In this document: positions 25,708 through 27,840 of the stretch, one piece after another
Position numbering within the stretch: position 1 is the first letter of the stretch
How the letters are laid out: the number at the start of each line of letters is the position of its first letter
DNA from: a virus
Lineage: Duplodnaviria > Heunggongvirae > Uroviricota > Caudoviricetes
IMG/VR virus record: IMGVR_UViG_2737471827_000002
Span: 1 to 32,272 of that record
DNA: 32,272 bases
Direction: 5' to 3' (one strand)
Program-made: the position numbers and the translations under genes
Notes under the pieces: generated by a model
Databases searched by the model: none
Told to the model about the DNA's origin: nothing
The model's input: the letters and a program-made list of their open reading frames with translations, nothing else

Positions 25708-25708
25708 A

Positions 25709-26200
25709 TCACTCTCCTTTGATGCGAATACCAGTGGTACTCATTCTCCTGATTTCCCAGAGCACACGAGGAACACCACCGTTTCCGACTGGATCGCGTT
25801 TACTCCGCAGGGCGACGCTTGATTCCGCCCAGCTTTTTCTTGGAGGAAGCTCTTTCACACGAACAAAACCAGCTGCGCGAAGAGATGCTCCTGATTCATC
25901 TGCCCGGGTGTACGTAATACAACGTTGATAACCCATAGCTTTTGCTGCCCGCCAGACAGCACCATAAAGCGCGCTGTTAGCGTTGCGTTCTCCTGTGGTA
26001 CATGTGCGATTTACTTCAAGCGTTAATCCATCGTCCAAATGTCGTGCAACAGGTCTACCGGCTGTCGCCACACCTATCAATTCTCCGGCATCATTTCTCA
26101 GACCAATGCTGAATTTATGCCCCACCGGGGGTTTATTGTGTCGGTGATGTCTGGATATAAACGCCTTCGCAACACGAAGAGTAACCGGTGAAATCTGCAC
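25709..26200 (-). CDS. Putative GNAT-fold N-acetyltransferase-like protein (about 163 aa, GTG start)
   Basis: ORF track 25709-26239; likely GTG start at 26200 after AAAGGAGAG; ...ALYGAVWRAAKAMGYQRCITYT...SGASLRAAGF resembles the acetyl-CoA-binding core (pattern judgement). Confidence 0.5.
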   Translation of the reverse strand: MQISPVTLRVAKAFISRHHRHNKPPVGHKFSIGLRNDAGELIGVATAGRPVARHLDDGLTLEVNRTCTTGERNANSALYGAVWRAAKAMGYQRCITYTRADESGASLRAAGFVRVKELPPRKSWAESSVALRSKRDPVGNGGVPRVLWEIRRMSTTGIRIKGE

Positions 26201-26202
26201 TC

Positions 26203-26562
26203 TCACTCTCCTTTGATGCCAATGTTTACAGCCTGGCAAGCCTCTTTGAGCACCCAGTCAACAGCGTCTTTCCATGCTCCGGTTTCGACTGGCGGATTTT
26301 CACGCTTAACCTGTTCATAGAAGCGCACTGCTTTAATCAATCCTTCTGGTGTCAGTGGCACAGGCGGGGCAGTGAATAACGCCTGAATTTCATAGTTCGG
26401 CCTGTCGTTACAATCCTCTTTTGTCGGTACATATTTCCAGTCACCAACCCACATCTTCTCCTGAAAGTCCGTAACGCCTTTTTTCACGTAGCGATATCGC
26501 CATGCCACTGGTTTTGCCTGCCCTGCCTTTTCATGCCCTTCCTGATAATTAATCTCGCTCAT
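26203..26562 (-). CDS. Hypothetical protein (119 aa)
   Basis: Start overlaps stop of upstream small gene (ATGA); ends in the conserved junction motif. Confidence 0.6.
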   Translation of the reverse strand: MSEINYQEGHEKAGQAKPVAWRYRYVKKGVTDFQEKMWVGDWKYVPTKEDCNDRPNYEIQALFTAPPVPLTPEGLIKAVRFYEQVKRENPPVETGAWKDAVDWVLKEACQAVNIGIKGE

Positions 26563-26735
26563 TCATCGCCCCACTCATCACAATATGCTTCGACCGGAGT
26601 TTTTCCTGCTTCATAATCATCACGCCATGCTTCAGCATCAGCAGCACTGCCACCACGTAACTCTGCATAGTCCATTAACAGTTCATGCCATTCTTCAAAA
26701 CTGACGTTGTATTTAGTTGAACCAAAATCAGCCAT
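26559..26735 (-). CDS. Small acidic protein (58 aa), not in ORF track
   Basis: Manual translation MADFGSTKYNVSFEEWHELLMDYAELRGGSAADAEAWRDDYEAGKTPVEAYCDEWGDE; SD AAGAGGAAG upstream; stop overlaps next start. Confidence 0.55.
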   Translation of the reverse strand: MADFGSTKYNVSFEEWHELLMDYAELRGGSAADAEAWRDDYEAGKTPVEAYCDEWGDE

Positions 26736-26910
26736 TTTGTTCTTCCTCTTCGTCTTTTATTTCGTGATATGAGTAATTGCAGTAGTTAAAGAAAATATCT
26801 TTTGCTTCGTCATATATTTCATCAGGCGTCGCATCATCATCCACTTCGAATTCATCCTCGAAATCTCCACCGGCTATTCCCGTTTCAATAATTATTTTAA
26901 ACTTTCGCAT
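26728..26910 (-). CDS. Small highly acidic protein (60 aa)
   Basis: About one third Asp/Glu residues; overlaps the start of the next small gene. Confidence 0.45.
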   Translation of the reverse strand: MRKFKIIIETGIAGGDFEDEFEVDDDATPDEIYDEAKDIFFNYCNYSYHEIKDEEEEQNG

Positions 26911-27005
26911 TTAACTACCGCCCTTTCGGGCGGCCTCCTGATGTTCTGAGGGTGCAGAAATCCCTCCGGTTAAGGATTAAATTTTATTTGCAGTGCTAAA
27001 TTTAA

Positions 27006-27362
27006 TTATTCAGTTCTGGCTTTTGTCGCCCTGCGTATCCGCGCTTTCGCGTTACGCTCAATCTGAATTAGCTTTTCTATATTTTTCCGCCTTTCCCGTT
27101 CCTCCTGGCGCAAGAGCCTTACATCATCCGCCAGTCTGGTTTCTCTTTTCGCCACTGAGAGCATCCAGTCAAACGGCTCCACAACTGCACCGCAGATTTT
27201 ACAGCGGACCTGGCGCTCTTTTTCGTCAACCCGGACAGAGGAGTGATGGCAGTATGATCTTTCCGATGGCTCATAAAGAAAATTAACCTGATTACGTGGG
27301 CCATCCTCTTTTACCGGAAATAAAACAATATTACTTAACTCATCTTCTGGTTTTATTTCCAT
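27006..27362 (-). CDS. Hypothetical protein with Cys-x2-Cys / His-His zinc-ribbon-like motif (118 aa from MEIKPEDEL)
   Basis: ORF track 27006-27419; SD AAAGGAGAGG precedes ATG at 27362; CHH...CKIC motif; Arg/Lys-rich C-terminus. Confidence 0.55.
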   Translation of the reverse strand: MEIKPEDELSNIVLFPVKEDGPRNQVNFLYEPSERSYCHHSSVRVDEKERQVRCKICGAVVEPFDWMLSVAKRETRLADDVRLLRQEERERRKNIEKLIQIERNAKARIRRATKARTE

Positions 27363-27840
27363 GCTCCTCTCCTTTGATGCGAATACCAGCGGCAATTGAA
27401 GCCTGATAGCTAATTTCACTCACAGCCCCCCCCTGTAAATTCCCATGATAAAACGCCAGCACGCGCTGCATAACTTCGCTCTTCCGGCACTCGCTACAGA
27501 TTATGTTCTGACGCCTGTCGTAGCGGCGTATTTCTCCGTCTGGTAATGACCAGATAAGGTCCGGATCAACAACAGATGATTTCTTCAGATTTGCCCTTGA
27601 GAGTTTTTTGCGGGCGTTTTGCCAGTCCTTACGCGCCTGTTCAGACGGGAATAACCCGTAGCCAGAAACGTACACATCACCACTGGCAGCCAGCTCTCTG
27701 GCGAGAAGGCTCATCAGATATCTTGTCGCCCCTGTTTTCGCCTCCAGTTGGCGTAACGTCTCGCGTCCACTCTGGCGTACAAGTTCAACAACCTGCCCTT
27801 TAATTTTTTCCCGCTCTTCCTGTGTAAATACTCTTGCCAT
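27340..27840 (-). CDS. Hypothetical protein (about 166 aa)
   Basis: Probable start MARVFTQEER after SD GGAGG; ends GIRIKGE within the junction motif. Confidence 0.55.
   Translation of the reverse strand: MARVFTQEEREKIKGQVVELVRQSGRETLRQLEAKTGATRYLMSLLARELAASGDVYVSGYGLFPSEQARKDWQNARKKLSRANLKKSSVVDPDLIWSLPDGEIRRYDRRQNIICSECRKSEVMQRVLAFYHGNLQGGAVSEISYQASIAAGIRIKGEEHGNKTRR

What the first reader, a model, noticed from the sequence alone, without database searches (positions are those of the whole stretch)
25708..27390. Conserved junction sequence repeated at three gene boundaries, giving three unrelated proteins the same C-terminal GIRIKGE or NIGIKGE
The minus-strand motif GCATCAAAGGAGAG occurs at 25712-25725, 26206-26219 and 27367-27380, each time overlapping the end of one gene and supplying the SD for the next; two copies share about 25 nt (CTGGTATTCGCATCAAAGGAGAG). 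Such conserved linkers are candidate module-exchange points in lambdoid mosaicism and also enforce translational coupling.
Basis: seen in the sequence. Interest (0 to 1): 0.45.

Follow-up and report, generated by a model that had tools for sequence, protein, structure and literature searches.

The report
Shared gene-junction linker in lambdoid prophages
A roughly 24-34 base sequence, the natural end of phage lambda's ea22 gene plus the ribosome-binding site of the next gene, sits at three gene junctions in this Rac-like prophage and marks where small accessory genes have been swapped between phages; this kind of element has been described before.

Summary
GCATCAAAGGAGAG occurs three times on the minus strand (27380-27367, 26219-26206, 25725-25712), against 0.3 expected. 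Copies A and C share 23 of 24 nt.

- **What it is:** the 3' boundary of ead/ea22-type genes. Lambda ea22 and HK620 hkaG end with the identical GCTGGCATTCGCATCAAAGGAGAG-TGA (..AGIRIKGE*). AAGGAG lies 6-7 nt before the next start codon.
- **Shuffling:** in 110 viral-contig instances, 15 unrelated upstream sequences join 21 unrelated downstream sequences in 50 combinations. Homology to other phages starts or stops exactly at the copies.
- **Cassette evidence:** the XF1762-family gene between copies B and C is precisely absent, or replaced, in relatives. An ea22-like cassette is inserted exactly at copy A in others.
- **Tail is grafted:** most XF1762-family members lack it.

The module-exchange reading is supported. 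Translational coupling is plausible but untested.

Corrections: at copy A the peptide is internal, inside a collapsed "mini-ea22" ORF fused to lygF. The linker and several flanking genes have their relatives in the exo-xis/ea regions of other lambdoid phages, although the position corresponds to nin.

This is an instance of the "boundary sequence" model (Botstein; Clark et al. 2001). It also explains the unexplained "+GE" terminus of Ea22 proteins. Interest is modest.

The parts
27367..27390 (-). Linker copy A: GCTGGTATTCGCATCAAAGGAGAG (codons A-G-I-R-I-K-G-E). AAGGAG at 27374-27369 lies 6 nt before ATG 27362.
   Evidence: Eight phage records and the 97.6%-identity block shared with E. coli CFSAN061761 begin exactly here.
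27340..27423 (-). 'Mini-ea22' ORF of 27 codons. It consists of an Ea22-type 5' boundary (GTGAGTGAAATTAGCTATCAGGC, 27423-27401), then 10 nt, then linker A, then 8 read-on codons. In this window it is fused in frame to lygF through a 2-nt difference in the G8 run at 27433-27426.
   Evidence: Relatives have a separate 27-codon ORF with its own SD, and lygF ends ..FQETVL*. The fused 166-aa protein is on at least 13 public contigs.
27340..27855 (-). DUF977 / LygF gene, the upstream partner of copy A. Its native end lies near 27438-27446.
   Evidence: Pfam DUF977 covers residues 6-141. Homology to other lygF genes stops at window 27446-27402.
27006..27362 (-). 118-aa zinc-ribbon-like gene ('D0'), the downstream partner of copy A.
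   Evidence: In 79 of 79 loci found through this protein, the exact 24-nt linker precedes it, behind 4 different upstream sequences.
26203..26562 (-). 119-aa ORF with an Ea22-type 5' boundary (ATGAGCGAGATTAATTATCAGGA, 26562-26540) and linker copy B at its 3' end (..NIGIKGE*). It has no Ea22 coiled coil.
   Evidence: Eight phage records lose homology 21 nt into this ORF.
26203..26224 (-). Linker copy B: CATTgGCATCAAAGGAGAG + TGA. AAGGAG at 26213-26208 lies 7 nt before GTG 26200.
   Evidence: Twelve of 34 phage records end here.
25709..26200 (-). XF1762-family (weakly Mom-like) gene of 163 aa. It forms a single-gene cassette bounded by copies B and C.
   Evidence: NCBIfam XF1762_fam E=1e-60, matching residues 3-136. 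The gene is precisely absent in L086, replaced by another gene in ON470583.1, and permuted in L036. The tail RMSTTGIRIKGE is found in only 5 of 120 homolog clusters.
25712..25735 (-). Linker copy C: ACTGGTATTCGCATCAAAGGAGAG, then TGA 25711-25709. AAGGAG at 25719-25714 lies 6 nt before ATG 25707.
25444..25707 (-). 87-aa gene ('D1'), the downstream partner of copy C.
   Evidence: Among 79 loci found through this protein there are 9 different upstream groups. Five groups (25 loci) carry the linker at <=2 mismatches. In the others only AAAGGAGAGTGAT (27 loci), or a different AAGGAAAG-CTGAT site (27 loci), is kept.

Best explanation
The repeated motif is the core of a boundary (linker) sequence shared by descent among lambdoid phages of Escherichia, Shigella and Salmonella. 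Its consensus is (G)CCGCTGGCATTCGCATCAAAGGAGAG-TGA-(T/G)ATG, conserved from about -13 to +20 around the 14-mer.

Its upstream half is the last 8-10 codons (..AAGIRIKGE*) of ead/ea22-type genes. Its downstream half (AAAGGAGAGTGAT) is the Shine-Dalgarno region and stop/start junction of the following gene.

The same 19-27 nt of exact identity (34 nt of near identity) sits between many otherwise unrelated genes, always in the same orientation and frame. It therefore offers a short patch for homology-dependent recombination between co-resident phages and prophages, and between copies in one genome. A crossover there swaps, inserts or deletes whole genes while keeping the upstream ORF closed and the downstream gene correctly preceded by an SD.

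In this window the three copies delimit two such segments: a 4-gene block between A and B, and the single XF1762-family gene between B and C. The linker has been grafted onto non-Ea22 genes (the lygF remnant, the 119-aa ORF and XF1762).

Shown here: the repeat, its conservation, the combinatorial joints, breakpoint coincidence, cassette presence/absence, and the grafted tail.

Inferred: that the joints were made by homologous recombination (phage Red/RecET/Erf-type annealases or RecA), that the SD is used, and that translation is coupled.
For: 1. Origin. Lambda ea22 (NC_001416 29847-29874) and HK620 hkaG end with the identical 24-mer + TGA, encoding ..DAGIRIKGE* and ..AAGIRIKGE*. The 37-mer consensus hits 389 phage records, including lambda, HK620, P22-like, P1-like and Stx phages, mostly under 'ead/Ea22-like' genes.

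2. Combinatorial joints. Among 110 linker instances with full flanks there are 15 upstream clusters, 21 downstream clusters and 50 distinct combinations, with 37 four-gamete quartets. The median exact block shared by junctions unrelated on both sides is 24 nt (IQR 19-27).

3. Samples not selected on the motif. Twenty of 36 distinct 3' junctions of Ea22-like genes carry the 24-mer with <=1 mismatch, and the lambda-type C-terminal domain is joined to at least 10 different downstream genes. All 79 usable D0 loci have the exact linker behind 4 different upstream sequences.

4. Breakpoints coincide with the copies. In E. coli CFSAN061761, identity jumps from 83% to 97.6% exactly at linker A, with a 710-nt DUF4406 + ea22-like insertion at that point.

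5. Cassette polymorphism. L086 joins the 119-aa-type gene to D1 through a single linker; the two HSPs overlap by 21 nt. ON470583.1 has a different gene in that slot.

6. The tail is not part of the host protein family. The XF1762 core ends ..RVLWEIR plus 1-3 aa in most of 120 clusters, and NCBIfam matches only residues 3-136.

7. The upstream half of the linker is not needed for the downstream gene. D1 also occurs behind junctions that share only AAAGGAGAGTGAT, or behind a different SD. Translation alone therefore does not explain conservation of GCTGGCATTCGCATC.

8. Literature. Short conserved boundary sequences are an accepted, documented route to lambdoid mosaicism, citing Clark et al. 2001 and Susskind & Botstein 1978 (PMC3029335; PMC2327257; PMC3233612). 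Red and RecET recombine diverged or very short homologies (PMC2327257).
Against: - No recombination event was observed directly. All evidence is comparative, and many database records are near-identical, so the counts overstate the number of independent events.
- 19-27 nt of exact identity is at the low end for efficient homologous exchange. That statement rests on established knowledge of RecA/RecBCD minimal homology and recombineering arm lengths, not on a test here.
- Other breakpoints in the same region do not lie at the linker: the native lygF end, 45 nt inside XF1762, and about 20 nt into Ea22-type and MTTITKER-type 5' ends. The linker is therefore one of several exchange points.
- About 15 of 36 Ea22-like 3' junctions lack the linker.
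- SD use and translational coupling are inferred from spacing only.
Confidence: 0.8

Rival explanations
1. The motif is only a strong translation-initiation and coupling signal that many genes evolved or retained independently. The mosaic joints were made by illegitimate recombination and sorted by selection (the Hendrix model). The linker plays no part in recombination.
For: AAGGAG sits 6-7 nt before each start codon, and the stop codon is 1-3 nt from the start. Other Ea22-like and EaA-like genes lacking the linker also end in K-G-D/E codons that spell an SD (..AMLKGDKS*..AMLHGKGE*). Many breakpoints in the region lie elsewhere. The literature regards illegitimate recombination as the main route (PMC3029335; PMC3233612).
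Against: Identity extends 10-13 nt upstream of what an SD needs, with identical codon choice (GCC GCT GGC ATT CGC ATC), on proteins that are otherwise unrelated. The D1 gene functions behind junctions lacking that upstream half. The tail is an add-on absent from most XF1762 relatives. In L086 the cassette is absent through a single shared linker copy.
Confidence: 0.12
2. The conserved element is a functional C-terminal peptide (..AGIRIKGE), for example a degradation, localisation or interaction tag selected at the protein level. The DNA repeat is a by-product.
For: The reading frame is the same at all three copies and in all relatives. Every Ea22 protein examined in PMC7093339 ends in K/R-G-E, which its authors flagged as unexplained.
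Against: - Variants of the linker are mostly non-synonymous and evidently tolerated (G->D, E->D, R->G, R->C), while synonymous variation is rare. That is the opposite of what peptide-level selection predicts.
- At copy A, and in 32 of 110 instances, the peptide is internal and followed by 8 more residues.
- In L155 and L203 it is read through.
- Most members of the XF1762 family lack it.
- Nothing was found for GIRIKGE in the literature.
Confidence: 0.04
3. The linker is the target of a dedicated site-specific activity: an integron-like cassette recombinase, a homing endonuclease, or an RNA-processing or regulatory factor.
For: The geometry is cassette-like, with single genes bounded by direct repeats that are present, absent or replaced. 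An HNH endonuclease gene lies in the corresponding region of phage ArgO145.
Against: - The linker contains no inverted repeat or conserved hairpin, and the predicted folds of the three copies differ.
- There is no Rfam hit at any copy.
- No recombinase gene is consistently adjacent.
- The linker occurs in phages with quite different recombination modules (lambda, HK620, P22-like, P1-like, Stx).
- Breakpoints fall at varying positions within and beside the block rather than at one phosphodiester bond.
Confidence: 0.03

Closest known systems
Conserved 'boundary sequences' / 'linker' sequences of lambdoid phages (modular evolution theory: Susskind & Botstein 1978, Botstein 1980; evidence in HK620: Clark et al. 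2001, J Mol Biol 311:657)
   Same: A short conserved sequence at gene boundaries, flanked by alternative non-homologous modules in different phages, and proposed to target homologous recombination (as cited in PMC3029335, PMC2327257, PMC3233612, PMC2839356). HK620 itself carries this very linker at the hkaG/hkaF junction.
   Different: I could not read Clark et al. 2001, which is not held. Whether this exact 24-mer is one of their boundary sequences is therefore unverified. Here the linker occurs three times within 1.7 kb, in the early-right (post-replication) operon of a Rac-like prophage, and on non-Ea22 genes.
ead/Ea22 genes of the lambda exo-xis region and their '+GE' (K/R-G-E) C-terminus (Dydecka et al. 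2020, PMC7093339; NMR structure of the C-terminal domain, PMC10834534)
   Same: The linker is the literal 3' end of lambda ea22 (..AGIRIKGE*). Ea22 proteins are mosaic, with a conserved N-terminus and coiled coil and unrelated C-terminal domains.
   Different: None of the three window ORFs has the Ea22 coiled coil or any Ea22 family signature. They carry only Ea22-type ends. The papers call the +GE motif unexplained. Here it is read as the translation of the next gene's SD inside the boundary sequence.
PeSL (promoter-early stem-loop) mobile regulatory cassettes of T4-type phages (Arbiol et al. 2010, PMC2839356)
   Same: Conserved short regulatory sequences flanking single genes act as linkers for insertion, deletion or replacement of modules while preserving their expression.
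   Different: PeSLs are intergenic promoter + terminator-like stem-loops, and they form minicircles. This linker is coding sequence plus an SD inside an operon, with no promoter or hairpin.

Membership tests
Lambdoid boundary/linker sequence (Botstein; Clark et al. 2001) | Short conserved sequence located at gene (module) boundaries | tested here: met
   All three copies span a stop/start junction. The same holds in 118 of 131 IMG/VR instances.
Lambdoid boundary/linker sequence (Botstein; Clark et al. 2001) | Flanked by alternative, non-homologous modules in different phages, so that mosaic joints coincide with it | tested here: met
   15 x 21 flank clusters in 50 combinations. Breakpoints lie at the copies.
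Lambdoid boundary/linker sequence (Botstein; Clark et al. 2001) | Exchange at the linker preserves gene integrity and regulation (same orientation and frame, SD retained) | tested here: met
   The frame and stop/start geometry are constant: 58 of 110 instances are GAG-TGA-N-ATG and 32 of 110 are the GAGGAGC-ATG variant.
Lambdoid boundary/linker sequence (Botstein; Clark et al. 2001) | Homologous recombination actually occurs at the sequence | not testable with these tools
   Only comparative inference is possible. Crosses are needed.
Lambdoid boundary/linker sequence (Botstein; Clark et al. 2001) | Identity with a boundary sequence listed in Clark et al. 2001 | not tested
   The paper is not held. 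HK620 carries the linker at hkaG/hkaF.
ead/Ea22-like protein family | N-terminal (M/V)S(E/K)I(N/D)YQALRE segment followed by the conserved coiled coil (LLDERERNQQYIKRRDQENE..; InterPro Ead_Ea22 signature) | tested here: not met
   There are no Ea22 family hits for the three window ORFs. The 119-aa ORF and the mini-ORF have only the first 7-8 residues. The coiled coil is present in clusters U0, U3, U4, U5, U9 and U11 but not in the window proteins.
Translationally coupled gene pair (SD inside the upstream ORF) | SD 5-9 nt before the start codon; upstream stop within a few nt of, or overlapping, the downstream start | tested here: met
   AAGGAG has 6, 7 and 6 nt spacers. The stop is 3 and 1 nt before the start at B and C, and the ORFs overlap at A.
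Translationally coupled gene pair (SD inside the upstream ORF) | Downstream translation depends on upstream translation | not testable with these tools
   Reporter fusions are needed.
Integron-type / site-specific gene cassette | Recombination site with imperfect inverted repeats (attC-like) and an associated site-specific recombinase | tested here: not met
   There is no inverted repeat or common fold, and no conserved neighbouring recombinase.

The most novel reading that the evidence does not exclude
The Ea22 'slot' may be a maintained diversification device rather than a passive scar. It has a conserved 5' boundary (GTG/ATG-AGC-GAA-ATT-AAC-TAT-CAG-GC) and a conserved 3' boundary (the linker). 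Together these would let any sequence dropped between them be expressed in operon context. They persist even as an empty 27-codon mini-ORF, have spread to both early operons and to P1-like plasmid prophages, and have diverged sister versions in Klebsiella and Salmonella phage pools. On this reading they would be selected because they accelerate turnover of accessory (possibly defence or counter-defence) genes, making them a lambdoid analogue of defence hotspots.
Probability: 0.15. Interest if true: 0.55.

Novelty: already known. Interest (0 to 1): 0.3.

Why it matters
It is a clear, quantifiable example of the Botstein/Clark "linker" route to phage mosaicism. The field usually treats that route as the exception to illegitimate recombination.

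It also gives a simple reading of a loose end in the Ea22 literature. The universal "+GE" C-terminus, called unexplained in PMC7093339, is the translated SD of the next gene inside a boundary sequence. That reading rests on sequence anatomy only.

For annotation, C-terminal ..GIRIKGE tails and N-terminal MSEINYQ.. heads on otherwise unrelated small phage proteins should be read as junction scars, not as evidence of homology. The "ead/Ea22-like" labels seen here on two genes that share only these ends may be misleading for that reason.

Tried and rejected
- **Chance:** rejected. 3 matches observed against 0.3 expected, and 0.00 expected for the 24-mer.
- **Known RNA element:** Rfam at E<=1 over 24000-29000 found only the sok RNA at 24628-24803.
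- **Conserved RNA hairpin:** the MFE folds of the three copies have nothing in common.
- **Functional peptide tag:** rejected on the variant pattern, the internal position at copy A, and its absence from most XF1762 relatives. A full-text search for GIRIKGE returned nothing.
- **Integron-like or site-specific cassette:** no inverted repeat and no associated recombinase.
- **Reading Clark et al. 2001** to check whether this exact sequence is listed: the paper is not held. Only secondary citations were available.
- **Taxonomic distribution from genome contigs:** about 30 of 43 hits are tiny or roughly 48.5-kb low-coverage contigs in unrelated taxa (Streptomyces, Bacillus, Prevotella, Shewanella and others). 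I read these as probable phage lambda contamination and uninformative.
- **Exact source of the window:** no complete E. coli genome matches the whole 24900-28650 stretch at >=99% identity. The best matches were 93-97.6%.
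Full report
**Observation.** The minus-strand 14-mer GCATCAAAGGAGAG is present at exactly the three stated positions (27380-27367 = copy A, 26219-26206 = copy B, 25725-25712 = copy C). That is three hits against 0.30 expected even when 2 mismatches are allowed, and no shuffle reached 3. The extended 24-mer GCTGGYATTCGCATCAAAGGAGAG matches at A (0 mismatches) and C (1 mismatch), with 0.00 expected. Copy B matches the canonical sequence over 22 nt with one mismatch, CATTgGCATCAAAGGAGAGTGA.

All three copies are read in one frame (I-R/G-I-K-G-E). AAGGAG lies 6, 7 and 6 nt before the next start codon (ATG 27362, GTG 26200, ATG 25707). At B and C the stop codon TGA follows immediately. 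Apart from the 7-residue tail, the three upstream proteins show no significant similarity by BLASTP; the only other hit is a 7-residue SEI.YQ match between A's tail and B's N-terminus, E about 1. One correction is needed: at copy A the ORF reads on for 8 codons (..GIRIKGEEHGNKTRR*), so the peptide is not C-terminal there.

**Context.** The window is a Rac-like lambdoid prophage. On the minus strand the order is:
- a YdaS/YdaT pair, opposite a cI-like repressor;
- a DnaT-domain O-like gene and a P-like gene;
- DUF1627 (ydaW-like) and DUF977 (LygF);
- a run of small ORFs;
- hok/sok, DUF968 and RusA.

The segment is therefore positionally nin-like. However, the linker and several flanking genes have their relatives in the ea/exo-xis (early-left) regions of lambda, HK620, P22-like and Stx phages, where they are annotated Ea22, Ead or EaA.

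**What the motif is.** A 37-mer consensus hits 389 phage records. Lambda's own ea22 ends ..MMSDAGIRIKGE* with the exact GCTGGCATTCGCATCAAAGGAGAG-TGA. HK620 hkaG ends ..AAIRAAGIRIKGE* with the same 24-mer. The motif is thus the native 3' end of ead/ea22-type genes together with the ribosome-binding region of whatever follows.

Dydecka et al. (PMC7093339) noted that all Ea22 proteins, despite unrelated C-terminal domains, end in K/R-G-E, and called the significance unknown. The simplest reading is that AAA-GGA-GAG is the next gene's Shine-Dalgarno sequence.

**Combinatorial joints.** Of 131 instances, 118 have the extended linker context and 13 are unrelated chance contexts. I clustered 150 nt on each side, excluding the linker, for the 110 instances with full flanks:
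- There are 15 upstream clusters and 21 downstream clusters, joined in 50 combinations. One upstream type is joined to 10 different downstream genes.
- 37 upstream-pair x downstream-pair quartets show all four combinations.
- With one representative per combination, conservation is at least 0.84 at nearly every position from -10 to +20, except -8, -1 and +17, and falls to background outside that range.
- Junctions unrelated on both sides share a median exact block of 24 nt, IQR 19-27.

The upstream proteins fall into several groups: Ea22-like proteins with different C-terminal domains; a second family (MWIEHPTLGNV..); a 151-aa protein; the XF1762-family protein; the 119-aa protein; and lygF remnants.

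**Samples not selected on the motif.**
- Among 80 loci retrieved with the lambda Ea22 protein there are 36 distinct 3' junctions. Twenty have the 24-mer with <=1 mismatch, and one has the copy-B form. The rest lack it; some are frameshifted, and one has a diverged ..AGRINGEG* version. The lambda-type C-terminal domain is joined to at least 10 different downstream sequences.
- Among loci retrieved with the gene downstream of copy A, 79 of 79 have the exact linker behind four different upstream sequences.
- Among loci retrieved with the gene downstream of copy C there are nine upstream groups. Five groups (25 loci) carry the linker. Three groups (27 loci) share only AAAGGAGAGTGAT, most of them behind a different tail (..AAMLHGKGE*). 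One group (27 loci) has a different junction, AAGGAAAG-CTGAT.

The SD half therefore travels with the downstream gene, and the upstream half is not needed for that gene's expression. Conservation of GCTGGCATTCGCATC on unrelated genes is better explained by shared descent than by translational function.

**Breakpoints.** I ran junction-centred megablast of 801-nt queries against 50,697 phage records.
- Junction A, 24 records: 3 span; 8 begin at the first base of the linker; 1 has an 808-nt insertion exactly there; 12 end 12-55 nt upstream, at the native lygF end or the 5' boundary.
- Junction B, 34 records: 2 span; 12 end at the motif or stop; 8 end 21 nt into the 119-aa ORF; 3 start inside XF1762.
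- Junction C, 70 records: 2 span; 2 end and 8 start at the linker; 4 match the linker alone; about 42 start at the next junction downstream.

In E. coli CFSAN061761, identity is 83% across lygF. A 710-nt DUF4406 + ea22-like insertion follows, and from the first base of linker A onward identity is 97.6% for 2,591 nt.

In IMG/VR locus L086 the 119-aa-type gene is joined to the copy-C downstream gene through a single linker; the two HSPs overlap by 21 nt. That is a precise absence of the XF1762 cassette. ON470583.1 carries a different gene in that slot, and L036 has the modules in permuted order.

**The tail is grafted.** NCBIfam XF1762_fam matches residues 3-136 of the 163-aa protein. In the 120 best homolog clusters the conserved core ends ..GNGGVxRVLWEIR, followed by 1-3 residues in most. 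Only five E. coli clusters have ..RMSTTGIRIKGE. A few Klebsiella, Salmonella and Enterobacter clusters have diverged tails: AAGIKVEVK, AAGIQVIEGEDGE and TTAGIKLQIEGE.

**A second boundary and the nature of copy A.** Ea22-like genes also share a conserved 5' end, (G/A)TG-AGC-GAA-ATT-AAC-TAT-CAG-GCA-CTG-CGT.., which occurs behind at least five different upstream contexts (100 distinct contexts). The window's 119-aa ORF begins with it (26562-26540). The sequence just upstream of linker A (27423-27401, GTGAGTGAAATTAGCTATCAGGC) is the same element.

Copy A therefore lies in a collapsed mini-ea22: 5' boundary + 10 nt + 3' boundary. In relatives such as E. coli TUM10008 this is a separate 27-codon ORF with its own SD, and lygF ends ..FQETVL*. 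In the window, a 2-nt difference in a G8 run (27433-27426) fuses it in frame to lygF. That fused 166-aa protein is encoded on at least 13 public contigs, so it is a real allele.

**Mechanism.**
- Shown: the linker copies are identical by descent, sit between interchangeable modules, and coincide with homology breakpoints and with cassette presence/absence.
- Inferred: the exchanges are homology-dependent crossovers in the 19-34 nt block, catalysed by phage annealases (Red, RecET, Erf/Sak-type) or RecA. PMC2327257 reports efficient Red recombination of diverged sequences and RecET recombination at very short homologies.
- The geometry (same frame, stop, SD, start) means every such crossover yields a closed upstream ORF and a correctly initiated downstream gene. 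That would explain why these joints survive selection.
- A small supporting hint: both window copies A and C carry the rare GGT variant (6 of 118 instances), whereas A-type junctions elsewhere are nearly all GGC. This is compatible with conversion between copies in one genome.
- The linker is not the only exchange point. The Ea22 5' boundary, an MTTITKER-type 5' end and some intragenic sites also recur as breakpoints.

**Rivals.**
- A purely translational signal with illegitimate joints is disfavoured. Identity extends beyond the SD, the upstream half is dispensable for the downstream gene, and the cassette in L086 is absent through a single shared linker copy.
- A functional peptide tag is disfavoured. 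Linker variants are mostly non-synonymous, the peptide is internal in about 30% of instances, and most XF1762 relatives lack it.
- A site-specific system is disfavoured. There is no inverted repeat or common fold, no Rfam match and no associated recombinase.

**Comparison with what is known, and verdict.** This is the "boundary/linker sequence" of the modular theory of lambdoid evolution (Susskind & Botstein 1978; Botstein 1980). Later papers credit Clark et al. 2001 with giving it sequence-level support in HK620. HK620 carries this very linker, but I could not read that paper, so identity with a published boundary sequence remains unverified.

The functional analogue in T4-type phages is the PeSL cassette (PMC2839356), which differs in being a promoter + stem-loop.

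I file the finding as already known in kind. It is real and well supported here. The additions are modest: the link to the Ea22 "+GE" terminus, the grafting onto non-Ea22 genes, the collapsed mini-ea22, and the occurrence of three copies within 1.7 kb of an early-right operon. Interest 0.3.

Noticed in passing
window 27426-27433 (minus strand G8 run) and 27340-27855: A 2-nt length difference in a G8 homopolymer, relative to E. coli TUM10008, fuses lygF (DUF977) in frame to the 27-codon mini-ea22 ORF. The fused 166-aa protein is encoded on at least 13 public contigs, so it is a real allele and not a sequencing error.
   Followed up: yes
window 26540-26562 and 27401-27423; loci L001-L204: A second conserved boundary: the 5' end of Ea22-like genes, (G/A)TGAGCGAAATTAACTATCAGGC.. 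= (M/V)SEINYQA... It occurs behind at least 5 different upstream contexts (100 distinct contexts). Eight phage records lose homology 21 nt into the window's 119-aa ORF.
   Followed up: partly
window 25411-25448: A third recurrent breakpoint, at the junction before and about 20 nt into the 55-aa ORF starting [12 protein letters not shown].. (ATG 25433). About 42 phage records, including the P22 eaA/eaI junction, begin their match here. Several downstream-partner genes share this MTTITKE(R/Q) N-terminus.
   Followed up: no
window 24478-24803: A hok/sok type I toxin-antitoxin module: Hok/Gef family ORF at 24478-24690 and sok antisense RNA at 24628-24803 (Rfam RF01794, 112 bits).
   Followed up: no
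loci L207-L249 (genome-contig scan): The exact lambda ea22 3'-end 21-mer turns up in about 30 assemblies of unrelated taxa (Streptomyces, Bacillus, Prevotella, Bradyrhizobium and others), on tiny low-coverage contigs or contigs of about 48.4-48.5 kb (Shewanella canadensis, two Pseudomonas). This looks like phage lambda contamination of public assemblies.
   Followed up: no
window 25712-25735 and 27367-27390: Both copies A and C carry the rare GGT (Gly) variant of the linker (6 of 118 instances overall), while A-type junctions elsewhere are nearly all GGC. This suggests possible gene conversion between the copies within this genome.
   Followed up: partly
proteins P0006, P0021, P0033, P0034 (XF1762 homologs): XF1762-family proteins from Klebsiella, Salmonella and Enterobacter carry diverged tails (..AAGIKVEVK, ..AAGIQVIEGEDGE, ..TTAGIKLQIEGE) that resemble AAGIRIKGE. 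These may be sister linkers in other enterobacterial phage pools.
   Followed up: no
L123 (ON470583.1) 3920-4360; L124 (NC_049918.1) 3530-4165: Some genes annotated 'Ea22 protein' or 'ead/Ea22-like' may owe the label only to the short shared 5' or 3' boundary sequences. I did not check these two genes for the Ea22 coiled coil. If so, the boundary scars would be propagating misleading family names.
   Followed up: no
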